A DNA stretch of 56,532 nt from Ferroacidibacillus organovorans. Lineage in GTDB: Bacteria > Bacillota > Bacilli > Alicyclobacillales > SLC66. Position numbers: made by a program. Positions 21,301-27,300 of the stretch are shown in pieces (position 1 is the stretch's first letter; every line of letters begins with the position of its first letter). The stretch is taken from the NCBI RefSeq assembly GCF_001642725.1, contig NZ_LSUQ01000005.1, forward strand, positions 62,001 through 118,532. Reading direction: 5' to 3'.

Positions 21301-24300
21301 GCGTGTTGTCGCAGCTTCACCGGATTACACTTGTCACAAACGCGCCGCAGTGTAAGCAGGGGGACCCTGATATGCGCATACCACCGGGTGTGGACGTGCG
21401 TGCGCATGGCGGTGTGACATTCCGCTCGGCGTTTGCAAACAAAGTGGCAGAGCGGTTGACGGGAAAACTCGACGATGAAAATCTGCTGTGGGCGCTGCGC
21501 GTCCCCCAGGTTAAAAAAGGCGATTTTGACGTACTCTACAGTCGCTCGCATCCAGGTGCAAGCCACATTCTGGCGGCCTCGCTCTGGAAGCGCACGCAGT
21601 TGCCGTGGATCGCTCAGTTCAGTGATCCGTGGTCGGCGAATCCCTACCATTCCCACCACACCATCATTCGGAAGCTGCGCGACCAGGAGCACGAACGATT
21701 TGTCATCGCGCATGCGGATCAACTCATCTTTCCGACCGTTGAAATCCAGGAAATCTACGAAAAGGCGTATCCTTTGCAAGCGATCAACGCCCGGTCGGTG
21801 GTCTTGCCCCATCACGTCTCAGAAGAGCTCTACAGCGTGAGAAATGCGAGCGTTCCGACGGAAGCCGGCAAGATGCTCCTGTCCTATTTTGGCGATTTCT
21901 ATGGCTTGCGCTCACCCGCGCCGCTGTTTGACGCGTTGCGGCACATTCACGCGCGAAACCCGGACAAGCTTGCGCGTGTCGAGATTGGCCTTTTTGGAAA
22001 CCTCGAGAAAAAGTTTGTCCCTCTTCTGGAGCAGGTGCCCGTCCGCATTCATCGCGGCCGCTATACGTATCTTGAGAGCCTGTCTGCAATGAGAAAGAGC
22101 CACGGTCTGTTGCTGATTGATGCGCCAAACGACACAGGAGTAAACCCGTTTCTCGCCTCAAAGTTGATCGACTACATTGGCGCTAAACGACCGATTCTTG
22201 GCGTCACCGAGGAACGCGGCACGGCGGCAAATTTCTTGCGTCAGGGTGGGCAGTATGTCGCGGCGCCCCGCGCGGTGGACAAAATTGCGTACGGGCTGGA
22301 ACAATTGATCGATTCAGCAAAGGTGACAGCAAGAATGGAGCGTCTGGCCGCAGCGTTTACATCAGAGAGGATCGTGGGTGAACTCGCGCAATGGTTGGAC
22401 AAGCAATAGACAGCGCGACGATGCGCCTGGCGAAAACCTCCAGGCGCATCGTTTTGTGCAGGATAGCATGCTCGATTCAGGAGATGCGTTGGGCTTTTGT
22501 GATGCGGTTTTTCCGGTAGAATTGCCGAGCGGACGCCCACAGATTGCCAGTCATCCAGATGCCGACGAGCAGCGTTGGCAAGCCGTAGATGAGTGTGTAA
22601 GGTTTGTCGCTTGTGATGCCGCTGTATACAAGTGATGTTCCGTAAACGCCGGCGATCAGTGACAAGAGCCAAATGAACCACAACCGAATACCCATGTTCA
22701 TATCAACTTCCCCCTCATTGGTTTACCCTCACGCATTCCCATTTCGAGACTGATAGCAGTTGGGCAATTCGCCCGCGAGCACGCCGCCCTTTTTCCCGCG
22801 AAACTCTTGACTGCACGAATCTCTGAGCGGGCAATTTGCACACGCATTTTGTTTTGACAGACCGCGATACCAGTCACGCCAGATCAACCGATGAACTGGG
22901 AGCACTTTCGGGAGCTTATTAAGCCCCGGAACCCAAGGTACAAGCACTAAGAGCGTAAAGAGAATGCCAATGGTGTAGGCGGCCATCTCATCGCCAGATG
23001 CGGACGTTGAGTACGGTGGAATCTGATACAAGAAGGTGTACGGTGTCAGCCACCATGGGCCGGGAAGCGCTGTCTCATCGTGATTGATGCCCCACTGATT
23101 GCCCTGCATATTGATCGTGTTGGCAATGTTGTGCAGGGTTGTACCTTGCAGGAACAACAGGTCGCCGCTTACGTCATAGCGGTAGACGCCGCCGTTCGTT
23201 TGGCGGTCGAGCGCACCTGAGAGAAGCCCAGATTTGGCGAGTTGCAACTCAGAATTCATCATGAGTGCCACGGGGCCATAATTGCCGAATGGCGTGACGA
23301 CGGCACCTTTAGAAACGGTCGCTTTATTGAGTGCATTGCTGTAATTTGTATCCCACTTTTGTTGCTGTGCGTAGGATGCGTTCTGATACTGTTGCAGCGC
23401 TTGGCTCAGTTTGTTGTTGGAAGAAGCTGTTGCCAGCATCTGCAGGGGTGCCATGATGTCGTTTTGTGCGGTATTCCAGTGATAGGGGGTCCCCCACCAG
23501 GTCTGAGGCGAGAAGCCCATGATCGATTGAATGGATTGCGCCTGACCGTGCCAACCGTGATTGTAAGGAGGGCCATAGCTTGCAATGGAACCTGTACCTG
23601 ACAGATCGCCGATGGCCGTCTGCTCGATGATTAAGGGAGAACCTAGTGCAATCTGTTGATTTGTGACGGCCGGGCGATACGGCGCGCCGAAGATGGCAGA
23701 AGCGCCAACAATCAGGACACCGATGATCCCGAGGCTGATGACACCCTCCTTGACCATGTCAAAGTCGCGTTGTGGAAAGCGCAAGGTGTCGCGTGTGAAT
23801 CGATCTTTTTTCATGCGTGCTCATCTCGCTTCTTTGCAGAAATCGAATAGGGTGGAACCACACCTTTGCTTCGCACGGCTAAGAGATGGATGCTGACGAG
23901 CCCGATAAGAATGGCAGGAAACACCGCGATGTGGAGGCCATAGACCTGCCCGTTGTTTAAGATGTTGAGAAATCCGTCGAGCCCTGCACCGTTAAACGCG
24001 TCCTTACTTTGAACCTGATTCCATTGTGAGAAAAAATCGCCCCTTGAGAGATACCCGGTGAACGCTTCAATAACCGATACGGCGAAGGAGAGCGCGCCAA
24101 CAACCCATGTGAGCGCGCGACCTTCGCGCCAGGATCCCATAAAGAACTGTCCAACGAGGTGCATCGTAGTAAAGAAGAAGAATGCCTGAACGCTCCAGTA
24201 GTGAACGCTTCGCAGAAACTCGCCGAGGCTTGAGGTCTGGTACCAGAGTGGACCTTTAGCCGACATGATGATTCCGCTTGCGATGCAAAAGACAAGACTG

Positions 24301-27300
24301 CTGAGTGTGAAGACGCCGAAGCTGTAGACGAGAGAGTTCACGTAGACGGGTTGTTCAGACGGCAACAAGTTATCCCAGGTAAGCTTTTCCGTTGCGGATT
24401 TGCGAAGTGATTTTGTCCAGTTCACGAACGATCACCGCGTTTCCCGTGTGGATACGTAAAGAGTGCGAAACTCGCAAACACGATGAGCCAGATGACACCG
24501 ACATAGATGTTCGGCCATGCATTCGATGTGTTAATCACCGTCAACCGCCTGCCTTTCTCTTATGGCTCTAGCATACGATCTGCGGCGAAAGGTGTTGAGA
24601 CCCGATCGAGTGTTCTTTTCCGCGAATTGGAGCTATTTGTGCATAGTCGGAATGGACCAGGGGAAACGACATTCTACCATTGACATGCTAGAATCTCAGG
24701 ACTAGCATGAGGGTACATCATCCTCCATCGCGAATGCCCCAAAAATTTCCCGTGCTTGATTGGCGAACGCATTCGTCTTTGGATGACATGGAGGTGAGTC
24801 AAGTCACGCTATCGATTATTGTTCCGACTTATAATGAGTTAGATAATCCAAAACGCTTAATAAATGAAATAATGCGTTATCTTCCTGATGGAACGTTTGA
24901 AGTGATCTTTGTCGATGACAGTTCAGATGAGCGATCGATCGAGTGGCTTAATGCTTTGTGTAAAACGTATCCTTTCGTGCGTCTGTTTCATCGCGTGCAG
25001 GAGCGCGGTCTCGGCAGTGCGGTCGTGCGCGGATTGGAACTTGCTTGCGGTGAATGGATCGCAGTGATGGATGCCGATCTGCAGCATCCGGCGAGTGTGC
25101 TCCCCGAGATGATGCGTGCGCTTTCAGCCGGATATGACGTGGTTATCCCGAGCCGCTTTGTCCCTGGAGGAAGTGACGGAGGGCTCTCGCTCCCGCGCAA
25201 GTGGATTTCTTTTACGGCGCGGTTGATCGGTCGTTTGGCGCTCAAGCGGCTGCGCAAGGTGTCCGATCCGACGAGTGGCTTTTTTATGATGAAGCGCGCC
25301 GTGATCGAAGGTGTTGCGCTGCGCCCCGTCGGGTGGAAGATTCTCATCGAAATTCTCGCGCGAGGGTCATACACGCGCATCCTAGAGATTCCGTACACGT
25401 TTGAGGCGCGCGCGTTTTGTGAGTCGAAAATGTCGCTCTACGAGCAGTGGAACTATCTCCGTCATCTCGGGCGCTTGATTCTTGACAGCCCTGAGGAAAG
25501 AAGAGTCTACCTCTTTGCGCTCGTTGGCGCATCAGGCGTTTTTGTCAATGAACTGTTCTATGACGTGCTGATTCATCTCCAAGTAGCGCTTTGGATAGCA
25601 GGCATGCTATCTGGCTTTATCGCGATGGTAACCAATTTTGTTCTCAATGATCGATTAACGTGGGTGGACGCGCGCGCGGGACAAGCGCATCGTCGTTTTC
25701 TCAAATATGTGATCACATCCTTGATTGGCATCGCGATCAGCACCGTAGTGCTCTCCTTTCTTGCGTATGGGGAGCGGGTGAACTCGCTCTATGCTAACGG
25801 GGCGGGAATCGCCGTCGCGACGGTCTGGAACTTCTACATCAACAATTTTTGGACGTGGAGAAAAAAGCATCGCGTTGTCGATATCGTCATTTCTTCGGTA
25901 GGCACGAGTACAGAGATTCGTTAGGGGGATAGGTCGTGCAACTGATTCTTTTATCTGGTGGTTCAGGAAAGCGTTTGTGGCCGCTCTCCAATGACGTCCG
26001 CTCAAAGCAATTTCTGCGCGTGTTAGAGGGGCATGATCAGAATCTCGTGTCGATGGTTGAACGCGTTTGGGGGCAACTCTCTGCGCTTAGGATGGACGGT
26101 TCGACCTATTTGTGCGCATCAAAGCTGCAGAAGGATCTGATCCACGCTCAACTGGGGGATGTCAGCGTCATCGTTGAACCGATGCGCATGGATACATTTC
26201 CGGCGATTGCCCTCGCGACAACCTATTTGGCGGATCAGGTTGAGGAAGATGACATCCTCGTCGTGGCGCCTGTGGATCAGTTTGTTGAAACGGGTTATTT
26301 TGAGCACTTAAAACGTCTTCCAGAGGTGCTCGTCGCATCTGGCTCGGAGATGGCCTTACTCGGTGTCAAGCCAACGCATCCATCGACACAATATGGGTAC
26401 ATATGTGTGGAACAGGAACGTGCGGCGGGATCATCCTATGCGCGTGTATCGTCGTTTCGCGAAAAACCGGAGCGAGCGCGTGCACTGGAGTGGATCGAAC
26501 AGGGTGCGCTGTGGAATTGCGGGGTATTCTGCTTTCGTAAATCGTATCTGATGCGCTTGCTTTCGGAGCGCGGTCTTCCGATTCACTATCGCGAGATGGT
26601 TGCGACGTTTCACGAAATGCCAAAGCGCAGCTTTGATTATGAAGTGGTCGAACAGACGGAAAAAATTGTCGTCGTACCGTACGATGGCGCATGGAAAGAT
26701 CTTGGGACATGGGAGACGCTTGCGCCGGAGATGCGCTCTTCCTTTCTTGGAATTGGTGTGGCGGACGATTGCGAAAACTCCCATGTTGTCAACGAGCTCT
26801 CCATTCCGATTGTCGCAAAAGGGTTAAAGAATTTGATGGTTGTGGCGAGTCCAGATGGGATCCTGGTGGCCGCGAAAGACCAGAGTGGTGGGATCAAAGA
26901 TCTCGTTGCCCCTTATTGCATCCGTCCCATGTTTGAGGAGCGGCGATGGGGATCTTACAAAGTGCTGGATTATCAGAAACTCCCTGACGGGAATGAGGTT
27001 TTAACAAAACAGGTCACGCTGCGCGCCGGCGCGAATATTAGTTACCATCGACACCATCTCCGAGAAGAGGTGTGGACGATGGTAGCTGGGGATGCTGTTC
27101 TAGCGCTGGACGGTAGAATGGTCAGCATTACGGCGGGGGATGTCTTTCGCGTTTGTCGCGGTCAGTGGCATGGCATCATGGCGAAGACGCAGGTTATTTT
27201 TGTCGAAGTGCAACGCGGGGAGACAATCACGGAAGAGGATTGTGACCGTCGCTTTATGGAGTGGGAGCATGTCATTGAACACTGTGAAGTTCTCGAACGG

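What a model noticed while it worked through the whole genome (the two positions that open the first line are those of the whole stretch)
22477..24538. Rieske-less, cytochrome-c-less four-gene cytochrome b module (two paralogous copies) restricted to acidophilic Bacillota [...]
C5:84477-86538 (-) (g00593-g00592-g00591-g00590) and its paralog C10:600-2619 (-) (g01056-g01055-g01054-g01053) encode a self-contained membrane module: a 38-51 aa one-helix peptide, a 204-213 aa b6-type cytochrome b (His 75/89 and 165/180: H-x13-H, H-x14-H; no CxGG haem-cn motif), a 326-361 aa partner without any Pfam family (N-terminal helix, ~200-aa outside helical domain with invariant YGPPY / LLFLQG, then PGPWWLTPYxFLYQIPP, which looks like a Glu-less PEWY/helix-F piece of subunit IV, and one more helix) and a 74-106 aa two-helix protein. 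The genome has no Rieske subunit, no c-type cytochrome and no cytochrome c maturation genes, so this is not a bc1/b6f complex. I propose a new kind of [...]
Evidence so far: Gene order and sequences: calls 49, 50, 105, 123, 128. No Pfam hit for the partner at E<=10. Homologs of g00591 (up to 5 per genome, 37-87% identity) in 30 of 64 Alicyclobacillales genomes: 16 of 18 other SLC66 genomes, 1 of 16 in genus g10; in 9 of 9 loci inspected the order cyt b - partner - g00590-like is kept while flanks differ. 517 database homologs at E<=1e-10, named only 'cytochrome B6' or hypothetical, from Sulfoacidibacillus, Fodinisporobacter ferrooxydans, Alicyclobacillus tolerans/ferrooxydans, Peptococcaceae and Thermaerobacter MAGs. 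Alignment of 18: invariant P251 G252 W255 Y259 L262 Y263 Q264 P266 P267. Complex prediction cyt b + partner: ipSAE 0.81 (runs 0.80-0.81, at least 8 [...]
(Added by a program. Inside this text positions count along the whole contig: contig position 62,001 is position 1 of the stretch shown here. "Call 12" and the like, gene names such as g00115 and contig names such as C1 are that model's own, and its searches are not shown. The text may have been shortened before it was handed on; [...] marks where a part breaks off. The agent that wrote the report below was given it as the finding of a first reader that could run no searches.)

Follow-up and report, generated by a model that had tools for sequence, protein, structure and literature searches.

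The report
Rieske-free split cytochrome b module
A small operon encodes a two-haem membrane cytochrome b whose second half carries a large, unfamiliar outside domain and which works without the iron-sulfur and cytochrome c partners of normal bc complexes; it belongs to an unnamed family found in many bacterial phyla, not only in acid-loving Bacillota.

Summary
The four minus-strand genes are real, and so is the paralogous copy on contig 10. The cytochrome b keeps its four haem histidines and four haem glycines. It lacks the haem-cn cysteine.

The family-less partner is the missing second half of cytochrome b: helix E, a remodelled Glu-less PEWY loop and helix F. A ~200-aa outside domain with no known fold is inserted between helix E and that loop. 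Support comes from profile-profile comparison (P 1e-4 to 2e-5), from natural fusions, and from a confident model of one fusion that aligns to long cytochromes b through helix F (Z about 20).

The genome has no bc-type Rieske protein, no c-type cytochrome family match and no ResB.

The claim of restriction to acidophilic Bacillota is refuted: at least 565 loci lie in many phyla. The conserved core is three parts (peptide, cytochrome b, partner), and the fourth gene is lineage-specific.

In Actinomycetota all three parts are one gene. It sits among DosR-regulon-type genes, and 35 of 80 loci carry a DosR-box palindrome upstream.

Best reading: a stand-alone, menaquinone-linked transmembrane electron-transfer module with a new outer-face site, probably used under oxygen limitation. 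The partner substrate is unknown and the iron link is unsupported.

The parts
24671..24699 (-). promoter-like site (CTGAGA-17-TAGAAT with TG) upstream of the operon, lying within a 13-nt-arm inverted repeat (24668-24697)
   Evidence: Consensus scan found 4 sites in the region against 1.9 expected, so this is weak.
24422..24544 (-). small one-helix peptide (40 aa from TTG 24544, or 38 aa from GTG 24538) with an N-terminal NAWPN motif, one TM helix, then YPH
   Evidence: ORF and start region. A like peptide ORF ends within 60 nt of the cytochrome b start in 34 of 50 loci. The peptide is fused in frame to cytochrome b in P0127-type genes.
23811..24425 (-). 204-aa four-helix di-haem cytochrome b. 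It is b6-like in H-x13-H / H-x14-H spacing and Arg185, has no haem-cn cysteine, and has shortened ab and cd loops
   Evidence: PF13631 at 56.6 bits and His positions. His75/89/165/180 and Gly37/51/110/124 are kept in at least 93% of 54 family members. The comparison with 24 canonical QcrB is. PDB sequence hits are to cytochromes b only.
22729..23814 (-). 361-aa partner, equivalent to helix E + inserted outside domain + remodelled ef loop + helix F of cytochrome b
   Evidence: No Pfam or NCBIfam family. hhalign to QcrC, natural fusions and the fusion model aligned to long cytochromes b through helix F.
23677..23760 (-). N-side motif D19-x-x-K22-E23 and the first TM helix (helix E equivalent)
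   Evidence: D in 65/66, K/R in 65/66 and E in 61/66 family members. hhalign places LVKE on LLKEW of QcrC, weakly (P 0.02).
23065..23676 (-). ~200-aa mostly helical outside domain (residues 47-250) with YGPPY and LLFLQG motifs and no conserved His, Cys or Met
   Evidence: AF2 pLDDT 79.7. No solved fold match: best VIA Z 3.9 of 48,161 chains and best Foldseek E 1.5.
23014..23067 (-). remodelled PEWY stretch L-P-G-P-W-W-L-T-P-Y-T-F-L-Y-Q-I-P-P (residues 250-267; family consensus Y at 250), with Trp at the place of the PEWY Glu
   Evidence: Column counts (W255 64/66, Y263 64/66, Q264 64/66). Aligned to PVPDWY..FLYQ of QcrC.
22918..22986 (-). second TM helix (helix F equivalent), followed on the inside by IWRDWY
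   Evidence: hhalign block. W312 and R313 are kept in at least 93% of 66 members.
22756..22842 (-). cytoplasmic C-terminal tail with four cysteines (C325-x2-C328-x5-C334-x18-C353), present only in the closest subgroup
   Evidence: Alignment A1: the tail is in 7 of 34 sequences. Metal binding is inferred only.
22477..22701 (-). 74-aa two-helix protein, a lineage-specific fourth gene
   Evidence: ORF and ribosome-binding site. Ten homologues sit directly downstream of the partner in Alicyclobacillales-type loci. It is absent from most other loci.
22423..22447 (-). 8-bp G+C-rich inverted repeat after the last gene, between the convergent genes; a possible terminator without a T run
   Evidence: Read from the sequence. 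The terminator scan did not call it.

Best explanation
The operon encodes a stand-alone, Rieske-independent cytochrome b split into pieces:
- a one-helix peptide;
- a four-helix, two-haem b6-like core (helices A-D);
- a partner that supplies helix E, a remodelled ef loop and helix F, with a ~200-aa family-specific domain inserted on the outer face where the Rieske head and cytochrome c1/f would sit in bc complexes.

Shown:
- homology and fold of both halves;
- the haem ligands;
- that the three parts form one unit, because they are one gene in Actinomycetota;
- the absence of Rieske, cytochrome c and PF00032 partners.

Inferred mechanism:
- The two b haems form a transmembrane wire.
- The inner-face (N, Qi-type) pocket keeps its family hallmarks: the (K/R)-E motif at the start of helix E, D19 and Arg185. 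It exchanges electrons with the menaquinone pool.
- The outer-face (P) pocket has lost the PEWY Glu, the PWxQ motif and the Rieske partner. Its own invariant polar set is Q134, W135, K141, D142 and N145 of cytochrome b, and Y80, Y84, Q96, W255, Y263, Q264 and D275 of the partner.
- This P pocket is a new reaction or docking site for an extracytoplasmic electron acceptor (or donor) that is not yet identified.

Inferred physiology:
- The module is an auxiliary respiratory branch used when oxygen is scarce, most likely an electron outlet from menaquinol.
- In Actinomycetota the fused gene lies in DosR-regulon-type neighbourhoods behind a DosR-box palindrome.
- Bacillota loci often carry PAS kinases, NarL-type regulators and an AhbD-like radical SAM gene next to it.
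For: Anatomy.
- ORFs with 4-nt overlaps.
- PF13631 over its cut-off.
- Four His and four Gly kept in at least 93% of 54 members.
- Ser replaces the haem-cn Cys, and PWDQ is lost, in 49 module proteins against 24 canonical QcrB.

Partner as helices E-F.
- hhalign against QcrC: probability 58%, P 1e-4, 68 columns, 37% identity.
- The C-terminal block alone: probability 77%, P 2e-5.

One functional unit.
- P0124 is cytochrome b + partner and P0127 is peptide + cytochrome b + partner.
- The triple fusion is in 303 loci, and 77 of the best 80 have one open frame of at least 580 aa.

Fold.
- The AF2 model of P0124 has pLDDT 86.4 and pTM 0.83.
- VIA-align gives Z 20.5, rmsd 3.2, 280 residues aligned, model 9..525 on mitochondrial cytochrome b 8..317. 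Actinobacterial QcrB scores similarly.
- The top Foldseek hits are long cytochromes b.

Independence from Rieske and cytochrome c.
- Own genome.
- 0 of 80 and 0 of 80 loci have a Rieske-motif ORF in the flanks.

Quinone link.
- UbiA, UbiE/MenG-type methyltransferase and polyprenyl synthase genes flank the module in three Spirochaetia loci.
- The N-side motif D-x-x-(K/R)-E is kept in 61-65 of 66 members.

Low-oxygen context.
- Among 80 Actinomycetota loci, a GAF-GAF-HisKA_3 kinase is present in 18. Other neighbours are Acg-family FMN oxidoreductase (256.9 bits, cut-off 199), Rv1733c family (145 bits, cut-off 80), Usp, CBS-BON and NarL-type regulators. 31 of 80 loci have at least one of five such types.
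- GGGAC-N4-GTCCC, the core of the published DosR box (PMC2275270, passages), occurs at 42 sites in 37 of 80 loci. Shuffles give 2.66 on average.
- 36 of these sites, in 35 loci, lie 104-424 nt upstream of the gene.
Against: - No biochemical datum exists. Haem content, quinone binding, direction of electron flow and the outer-face partner are all inferred.
- The outside domain has no conserved His, Cys or Met and no known fold, so it offers no clue to a substrate.
- The model is of a relative (46% and 39% identical to the window's two proteins), not of the window's own proteins. I could not read its coordinates, so the placement of the PGPWWL stretch next to haem bL rests on alignments only.
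- The helix-E alignment is weak on its own (P 0.02).
- The DosR-type context is seen only in the Actinomycetota branch, whose genomes are related to each other. One of 80 multi-phylum loci has the palindrome, and no shared upstream palindrome was found there.
- The window's own operon is flanked by envelope-glycan genes, not regulators.
- Two-component genes near the Bacillota loci are a minority: 6 response regulators among 91 neighbour ORFs.
- A wire of two haems with a quinone site on each side and no outlet would do no net chemistry, so the proposal depends on an unseen partner.
Confidence: 0.55

Rival explanations
1. It is the membrane core of a bc-like quinol:carrier oxidoreductase that recruits an unlinked high-potential partner. 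In this genome that would be a sulfocyanin-type cupredoxin feeding the CuA oxidases. Quinol would be oxidised at the outer-face pocket as in bc complexes, with the outside domain docking the carrier in place of Rieske and cytochrome c1.
For: - The genome has CuA-type oxidases preceded by SoxE-domain sulfocyanins and cupredoxin-like proteins, but no bc complex to feed them from quinol.
- The outside domain sits where the Rieske head and c1 would be.
- An archaeal precedent of sulfocyanin working with a Rieske/cytochrome b unit is recalled, not tested here.
Against: - No Rieske-type first acceptor is present, and the PEWY Glu and PWxQ motif are lost.
- No cupredoxin gene is linked to the module. 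Cupredoxin_1 matches 2 of 91 neighbour ORFs in Alicyclobacillales-type loci and is not among the 25 commonest families for the 146 other neighbour ORFs.
- The genome also has three Qox-like quinol oxidases, so no such link is needed.
- The family occurs in many lineages irrespective of canonical bc complexes.
Confidence: 0.15
2. It is an iron-specific device of acidophiles. It would be either a cytochrome-c-free menaquinol:Fe(III) reductase acting on soluble ferric iron at the outer membrane face, or part of ferrous iron oxidation.
For: - Up to 5 copies per genome occur in Alicyclobacillales from mine waters.
- Named carriers include iron-cycling species: Sulfoacidibacillus, Fodinisporobacter ferrooxydans, Alicyclobacillus tolerans and A. 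ferrooxydans.
- The fused form is in Acidimicrobiaceae and Trebonia MAGs from bogs and peat.
- Papers state that most acidophilic iron reducers lack any recognised iron redox complex (PMC13272565, passages; PMC8790237, passages).
- A low-oxygen context would suit ferric respiration.
Against: - The family is also in Spirochaetia, Chloroflexota, Ignavibacteriales, Gemmatimonadota, Trueperaceae and Proteobacteria with no known tie to acid or iron.
- It is also in Alicyclobacillus species not named for iron metabolism.
- No metal-ligand-type residues are conserved in the outside domain.
- VIT1 iron-transporter neighbours occur in only 3 related loci.
- For iron oxidation the b haems would have to accept electrons from a couple near +0.7 V (values cited in PMC13272565) and pass them to menaquinone, which is strongly uphill.
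Confidence: 0.12
3. It is not a respiratory enzyme but a membrane redox sensor or accessory. It could be a quinone-pool or haem-state reporter for nearby two-component systems, or a haem or quinone handling protein.
For: - Two-component genes lie directly upstream in the same orientation in some loci (L028, L032), and NarL-type regulators with PAS kinases in others.
- There are no conserved enzymatic neighbours.
- The outside domain lacks cofactor ligands.
Against: - Both haem sites, the transmembrane arrangement and polar residue sets on both faces are strictly conserved across phyla.
- Regulators are near only a minority of loci.
- In Actinomycetota the gene looks like a target of the regulator (box upstream), not part of the sensing pair.
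Confidence: 0.08

Closest known systems
Cytochrome b6 + subunit IV of b6f / Bacillus-type bc complexes (QcrB + QcrC)
   Same: - Split architecture, with helices A-D in one protein and the following helices in the next gene.
- H-x13-H and H-x14-H haem ligands, four haem glycines, and Arg five residues after the last His.
- The (K/R)-E motif at the start of helix E, and P-x-W...(F/Y)-Q in the ef loop followed by helix F.
   Different: - No Rieske protein, no cytochrome c domain, no haem-cn cysteine, no PEWY Glu and no PWxQ.
- Only two helices (E, F) instead of three.
- A ~200-aa domain is inserted between helix E and the ef-loop motif.
- An extra N-terminal one-helix peptide.
- No PF00032 match.
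Long cytochromes b of bc1 / actinobacterial bcc complexes
   Same: The natural fusions have the same order of helices A-F in one chain. The best structural matches have Z about 20 over 280-300 residues.
   Different: - The structural alignment stops at helix F (chain residues up to about 317-328 of about 380), so helices G and H are missing.
- The outer-face domain and the N-terminal peptide are family-specific.
- Sequence scores against NCBIfam QcrB are far below the cut-off (47 against 500 bits).
Rieske-less cytochrome b modules: ExtP of the Geobacter selenite/tellurite operon (NCBIfam NF040969), Cbc-type complexes, and SoxC of the archaeal SoxABCD quinol oxidase (the last two recalled from memory)
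   Same: - These are cytochrome b homologues that work without a Rieske protein.
- ExtP is the best-scoring NCBIfam model for all 43 module proteins tested.
   Different: - Scores are far below the curated cut-offs: 67 against 290 bits for ExtP and 21 against 740 for SoxC.
- Those systems are linked to multihaem c-type cytochromes, iron-sulfur proteins or a haem-copper oxidase (recalled). This module has no such neighbour.
Orphan cytochrome b subfamilies listed by Dibrova et al. 2017 (PMC5600118): subfamily K (short, no CxGG, obscure function) and subfamily H (large proteins with a cytochrome b domain, function unknown)
   Same: They are cytochrome b relatives with no assigned partner or function. 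The paper also notes that the origin of subunit IV is obscure (section 8 part 1 and passages).
   Different: - Subfamily K has a haem His replaced, whereas all four His are kept here.
- I could not see the paper's figures or supplementary tree, so I cannot say whether this family is one of its clades.
- None of the passages I read describes the partner protein, its outside domain or the fusions.

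Membership tests
Cytochrome b/b6 superfamily (PF00033 / PF13631), di-haem four-helix core | Pfam model matched above the gathering score | tested here: met
   PF13631 at 56.6 bits (cut-off 27) and PF00033 at 35.8 bits (cut-off 27.2).
Cytochrome b/b6 superfamily (PF00033 / PF13631), di-haem four-helix core | Two His pairs on helices B and D, and the haem-packing glycines on helices A and C | tested here: met
   His75/89 (x13) and His165/180 (x14). These and Gly37/51/110/124 are kept in at least 93% of 54 members.
Cytochrome b/b6 superfamily (PF00033 / PF13631), di-haem four-helix core | Fold of cytochrome b | tested here: met
   A model of the natural fusion P0124 gives VIA-align Z 18-20.5 with 280-312 residues aligned. 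This is a model of a relative, not of the window's own protein.
Rieske/cytochrome b complex (bc1, b6f, bcc) | Membrane-anchored Rieske [2Fe-2S] subunit | tested here: not met
   The 4 Rieske-domain ORFs in the genome are all soluble types. No Rieske-motif ORF lies within the flanks of 0 of 80 multi-phylum and 0 of 80 Actinomycetota loci. Genome completeness is 96.8%.
Rieske/cytochrome b complex (bc1, b6f, bcc) | High-potential c-type cytochrome (c1, f, or di-haem c) and its maturation system | tested here: not met
   PF00034: 0 matches. PF13442: 0. ResB: 0. The one PF01578 match lies between hemA-like and hemC-like genes. No ORF has more than one CxxCH.
Rieske/cytochrome b complex (bc1, b6f, bcc) | Subunit IV / C-terminal domain (PF00032) with the PEWY-type quinol-site motif | tested here: not met
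   No PF00032 match in the genome or on the partner. The motif place reads P-W-W-L with no acidic residue. Remote homology of the region is supported, so the module is related to the family but not a member.
b6-type cytochrome with haem cn | Cys of the CxGG motif on helix A | tested here: not met
   Ser sits at that column in the module proteins, against Cys in 24 canonical QcrB.
NCBIfam cytb_ExtP (NF040969) | Score above the curated cut-off | tested here: not met
   67.3 bits against a cut-off of 290. All 43 members tested are below it.
SoxC of SoxABCD (NF041076) | Score above the curated cut-off | tested here: not met
   21 bits against a cut-off of 740.
Prokaryotic cytochrome b561 / hydrogenase-type cytochrome b (PF01292) | Pfam model matched above the gathering score | tested here: not met
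   27.1 bits against a cut-off of 30.1.
DosR (DevR) regulon member (Actinomycetota branch of the family only) | DosR-box palindrome upstream, with DosR-regulon-type neighbours | tested here: met
   35 of 80 loci have GGGAC-N4-GTCCC 104-424 nt upstream. The consensus is from PMC2275270. Binding and induction were not tested, and this does not apply to the window's own operon.

The most novel reading that the evidence does not exclude
The family is a previously unrecognised class of terminal respiratory enzyme. It would be built on a bc-type cytochrome b core but need no iron-sulfur or c-type cytochrome subunit. It would carry electrons from the menaquinol pool across the membrane to an outer-face site that reduces a soluble extracellular oxidant. 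In cytochrome-c-free acidophilic Bacillota and Acidimicrobiia that oxidant would be ferric iron; elsewhere it could be humic or other oxidants. The enzyme would be switched on by oxygen limitation (DosR-type control in Actinomycetota). As a Rieske-free cytochrome b that already has the helix E-F piece, it would also be a living relative of the stage before bc complexes acquired the Rieske protein, and so bear on the unexplained origin of subunit IV.
Probability: 0.15. Interest if true: 0.85.

Novelty: new variant of a known kind. Interest (0 to 1): 0.68.

Why it matters
- The partner protein has no Pfam or NCBIfam family. Yet it has 1008 cluster representatives at 50% identity and hundreds of loci across phyla, so a common membrane redox module is currently invisible to annotation, or is mislabelled 'cytochrome B6'.
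- It shows that the cytochrome b scaffold of bc complexes also exists as a self-contained unit with a rebuilt outer-face site. That bears on how the quinol-oxidising site and subunit IV arose; PMC5600118 calls their origin obscure.
- The DosR-type setting in soil and peat Actinomycetota gives a testable link to survival at low oxygen.
- For acidophilic Bacillota without c-type cytochromes, it is one of the few unassigned membrane redox proteins that could take part in the still unexplained iron reduction. That link remains open.

Tried and rejected
- A profile of the partner against PDB sequences found nothing (best E 0.52).
- The outside domain alone was searched against solved folds. Best VIA-align Z was 3.9, with 0 of 48,161 chains at Z 5 or more. 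Foldseek gave nothing at E 0.001 or better.
- The ESM Atlas returned only unnamed clusters, commonest in Actinomycetota, with scores of 0.81-0.82. These are leads only.
- Complex prediction of the 74-aa protein against cytochrome b + partner + 2 haems gave no verdict (score 0.00, controls not run).
- Sequencing runs: no RNA holder was listed. I did not lay reads.
- The '1 TGA' flagged inside five homologues is the terminal stop codon.
- No shared 5-nt-arm palindrome was found upstream of the module in 51 non-actinomycete regions.
- Conserved neighbours were sought by clustering the ORFs of 80 + 80 loci. None is general.
- Literature searches found no description of this family:
  - Sulfoacidibacillus + cytochrome + iron oxidation;
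  - Acidibacillus + genome + cytochrome b;
  - cytochrome b + subunit IV + without Rieske;
  - DosR + cytochrome b6 (one irrelevant hit);
  - Ferroacidibacillus / electron transport.
PMC3839093 (Dibrova 2013) is not held.
- The figures and supplements of PMC5600118, which hold the cytochrome b tree, were not seen and may already include the cytochrome b half of this family.

Full report
**What is in the window**

Four minus-strand ORFs lie at these positions:
- 24422-24544: 40 aa from TTG, or 38 aa from GTG at 24538
- 23811-24425: 204 aa
- 22729-23814: 361 aa
- 22477-22701: 74 aa

The first three overlap by four bases (GTGA and ATGA). The fourth follows after 27 nt with a strong ribosome-binding site. 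Both flanking genes are on the other strand and belong to envelope-glycan metabolism: a sulfotransferase, a GT4-like protein, a GT2-GtrA fusion and a mannose-1-phosphate guanylyltransferase. The four genes therefore form a self-contained unit.

A promoter-like site on the minus strand lies at 24699-24671, inside a 13-nt inverted repeat. This is weak evidence, because the scan found 4 sites where 1.9 are expected.

A paralogous set with the same order sits on contig 10. Identities to the window copy are 51% for cytochrome b, 37% for the partner and 27% over 44 aa for the fourth gene.

**The cytochrome b**

- It matches PF13631 and PF00033 above their cut-offs. In the PDB sequence set it hits only cytochromes b.
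- His75/89 and His165/180 have the b6 spacing.
- These four histidines and Gly37/51/110/124 are kept in at least 93% of 54 family members.
- I compared 49 module proteins with 24 canonical QcrB proteins from the same order. The module proteins have Ser where the haem-cn Cys stands, lack the PWDQ motif of the cd region, and have shorter ab and cd loops. They keep Arg five residues after the last His.
- All 43 members tested score far below the curated cut-offs of the NCBIfam models. ExtP scores best, then b6, then actinobacterial QcrB. This is a separate subfamily.

**The partner**

It matches no Pfam or NCBIfam family, and a profile search of PDB sequences found nothing. Three lines of evidence show that it is the second half of cytochrome b.

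1. Profile-profile comparison with QcrC (subunit IV fused to cytochrome c) of relatives.
   - The stretch YPGPWWLTPYTFLYQIPP plus the next helix aligns with PVPDWY..FLYQ plus helix F: probability 58%, P 1e-4, 37% identity over 68 columns.
   - The C-terminal block alone gives probability 77% and P 2e-5.
   - The N-terminal block places its VKE on LLKEW at the start of helix E, but weakly (P 0.02).
2. Natural fusions.
   - P0124 (554 aa) is cytochrome b followed by the partner.
   - P0127 (639 aa) is a small peptide, cytochrome b and the partner in one chain.
   - The P0127 type is in 303 loci of the species-level genome collection, and 77 of the best 80 have one open frame of at least 580 aa.
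   - The order of the pieces fits the topology of a long cytochrome b: helix D ends inside and the partner's first helix runs outward.
3. A structural model of the fusion.
   - The AlphaFold2 model of P0124, built on an alignment of 118 rows, has pLDDT 86.4 and pTM 0.83.
   - VIA-align places it on long cytochromes b at Z 18-20.5 with 280-312 aligned residues. The alignment spans model residues 1..525 and chain residues 1..~317-328, that is, through helix F.
   - The top Foldseek hits are the same proteins.
   - P0124 is 46% and 39% identical to the window's two proteins.

Between helix E and the ef-loop motif lies a ~200-aa, mostly helical outside domain. Folded alone it gives pLDDT 79.7, and it has no match among solved structures. 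It has no conserved His, Cys or Met.

**What is absent**

The genome is 96.8% complete.
- It has four Rieske-domain ORFs, but all are soluble types.
- It has no match to PF00034, PF13442, ResB or PF00032.
- The single PF01578 match lies between hemA-like and hemC-like genes. That is the position of HemX in the Bacillus hem operon, as I recall it.
- Across relatives, no Rieske-motif ORF lies in the flanks of 0 of 80 multi-phylum loci or 0 of 80 Actinomycetota loci. Single CxxCH motifs occur in 5 and 1 of these loci.

**Distribution**

- The partner has 517 hits in the 90% clusters and 1008 representatives at E 0.001 or better in the 50% clusters.
The best 80 come from Alicyclobacillales and also from MAGs or isolates labelled Chloroflexi, Actinomycetes, Thermoleophilia, Gaiellales, Spirochaetia, Vicinamibacterales, Gemmatimonadaceae, Longimicrobiales, Trueperaceae, Ignavibacteriales, Dormiibacterota, Dehalococcoidia, Sulfuriferula multivorans and Acidithiobacillus sulfurivorans.
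- The restriction to acidophilic Bacillota is therefore wrong.
- Within the order the module is in 30 of 64 genomes and canonical QcrC is in 28 of 64. Thirteen genomes have both (overlap counted from the two tables). The module is neither a substitute for nor a companion of bc complexes.

**The conserved unit**

- Cytochrome b and the partner are adjacent in nearly all loci.
- A one-helix peptide ORF ends within 60 nt of the cytochrome b start in 34 of 50 loci. Its motif is NAWPN in Bacillota and FNLAIPN in other phyla. It is fused in the P0127 type.
- The 74-aa fourth protein has homologues only in ten Alicyclobacillales-type loci. A different small gene follows the partner in five other loci.

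**Conserved residues**

- Inner face: the partner keeps D19 (65/66), K/R22 (65/66) and E23 (61/66). Cytochrome b keeps R100, R103, T106, W107 and R185.
  - In bc1 complexes the Lys-Asp pair at the start of helix E lines the quinone-reducing site, and the Arg after the last His lines that of b6f. Both points are recalled, not tested.
- Outer face: the place of PEWY reads P-W-W-L with no acidic residue. A family-specific polar set is invariant: Q134, W135, K141, D142, N145, N154 and Q160 of cytochrome b, and Y80, Y84, Q96, W154, W255, Y259, Y263, Q264 and D275 of the partner.
- My reading is that the inner quinone site is retained and the outer site is rebuilt.

**Context**

No neighbour is general. 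Three themes recur.

1. Quinone biosynthesis. UbiA, a UbiE/MenG-type methyltransferase and a polyprenyl synthase flank the module in three related Spirochaetia loci. PF01209 matches 4 of 146 neighbour ORFs outside Alicyclobacillales.
2. Signalling and anaerobic-type genes in Alicyclobacillales-type loci. Among 91 neighbour ORFs there are:
   - 6 response regulators, 4 kinases (3 with PAS domains) and 4 LuxR/NarL-type regulators;
   - 4 radical SAM proteins. The one scanned against NCBIfam is over the cut-off for TIGR04053 and next best to haem b synthase AhbD;
   - a truncated globin in one locus.
3. DosR-type setting of the fused gene in Actinomycetota.
   - Among 80 loci, 18 have a GAF-GAF-HisKA_3 kinase. 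This is the DosS/DosT architecture, as I recall it.
   - Ten loci have an Acg-family FMN oxidoreductase (256.9 bits, cut-off 199), and eight have an Rv1733c-family protein (145 bits, cut-off 80).
   - Others have Usp, CBS-BON, PNPOx-like proteins and NarL-type regulators.
   - 31 of 80 loci have at least one of five such types and 11 have two or more.
   - The palindrome GGGAC-N4-GTCCC is the core of the published DosR box TTSGGGACTWWAGTCCCSAA (PMC2275270, passages). It occurs at 42 sites in 37 of 80 loci, against a mean of 2.66 (maximum 6) in 50 shuffles.
   - 36 of these sites, in 35 loci, lie 104-424 nt upstream of the gene.
   - These genomes are related to each other, so the counts are not independent events.
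   - The palindrome is in only 1 of 80 multi-phylum loci. No shared palindrome was found upstream of the module in those loci or the window's two copies.

**Most likely mechanism**

- Shown: a di-haem cytochrome b of the bc type, split into a peptide, an A-D core and an E-F piece, works as one unit without Rieske or cytochrome c.
- Inferred: the haems link a retained inner-face menaquinone site with a rebuilt outer-face site capped by the new domain. The module serves as an auxiliary electron route, most likely an outlet from menaquinol to an extracytoplasmic oxidant, when oxygen is scarce.
- The acceptor is unknown.
- Rival readings are a bc-like quinol:cupredoxin reductase, an iron-specific reductase or oxidase, and a sensor. 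Each is given with its evidence in its own section.

**The iron question**

- The window's genome has its own conventional candidates for ferrous oxidation. SoxE-domain sulfocyanins and a cupredoxin-like protein sit directly upstream of CuA-type haem-copper oxidases on contigs 62 and 23.
- Papers on acid mine isolates state that most ferric reducers lack any recognised complex (PMC13272565 and PMC8790237, passages). A role of the module in ferric reduction therefore remains possible.
- Such a role rests only on habitat and on the low-oxygen context.

**Comparison with what is known**

- The module is a relative of the Rieske/cytochrome b complexes but not a member. Four defining features were tested and not met: Rieske, c-type cytochrome, PF00032/PEWY and the haem-cn Cys.
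- Rieske-less cytochrome b systems are known: ExtP in NCBIfam, and Cbc complexes and SoxC as recalled. They are tied to other redox subunits, and the module scores far below their models.
- The 2017 survey of cytochrome b subfamilies mentions orphan clades of unknown function and calls the origin of subunit IV obscure (PMC5600118, section 8 part 1 and passages). I could not see its tree.
- Five literature searches found no description of the partner, the fusions or the DosR link.
- I therefore rate the module a new variant of a known kind.

Noticed in passing
G000 contigs C62:1572-6151 and C23:4022-8656 (outside the window; loci L205, L206): Two clusters encode a SoxE-domain sulfocyanin lipoprotein, a second cupredoxin-like protein with a C..H..M copper-type motif (one has a twin-arginine-like leader), COX2 with a CuA motif, COX1 and COX3. 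A third, truncated copy lies on C27 and C39. These are candidate ferrous-iron or cupredoxin-fed oxidases in a genome without c-type cytochromes.
   Followed up: partly
G000 contigs C58, C55, C9: Three further haem-copper oxidase operons have a lipoprotein subunit II that lacks my CuA pattern, so they look like Qox-type quinol oxidases. The genome has seven COX1 matches in all, an unusually large set for 3 Mb.
   Followed up: partly
window 22756-22842 (-), residues 325-353 of the partner: A cytoplasmic tail C-x2-C-x5-C-x18-C is present in 7 of 34 aligned partners. All 7 are from the closest subgroup (Sulfoacidibacillus, Fodinisporobacter ferrooxydans, Alicyclobacillus tolerans, A. ferrooxydans, Alicyclobacillaceae I2511). 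It may be a metal or iron-sulfur site on the inner face. This was not tested.
   Followed up: no
table: G045:C1:4609858-4610481, G044:C61, G044:C135, G052:C10, G033:C73, G036:C1:4363718: A third, distant branch of partner-like proteins (E 1e-26 to 1e-29) matches only profile positions ~106-305, in open frames of 311-334 aa, in five genomes of the order. Their neighbours were not inspected.
   Followed up: no
L014, L015, L017, L024 (downstream of the partner): A TIGR04053-family radical SAM/SPASM gene lies just downstream of the module in four Sulfoacidibacillus-type loci. It scores 469 bits against a cut-off of 395, and its next best model is haem b synthase AhbD at 352 bits. It may be an oxygen-independent haem step.
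   Followed up: partly
L012:4151-4510 (-): A bacterial-like (truncated) globin gene lies upstream of the module in the Sulfoacidibacillus thermotolerans locus.
   Followed up: no
G000:C2:53939-55534 (+): A 532-aa FAD-dependent oxidoreductase has a C-terminal Rieske domain, next to a Rieske oxygenase-like gene (C2:51498-52502). These are the only Rieske proteins of notable size in the genome, and both look soluble.
   Followed up: no
window 20289-22409 and 24707-27303: The operon is inserted between envelope-glycan genes on the opposite strand: a sulfotransferase (PF13469), a GT4-like protein, a GT2-GtrA fusion and a ManC-type nucleotidyltransferase/isomerase.
   Followed up: no
names: Public records call the haem-free partner 'cytochrome B6', and one calls it 'putative PAS/PAC sensor protein'. 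Several MAGs that carry the module are labelled Patescibacteria or Colwellbacteria, which may be binning errors.
   Followed up: no
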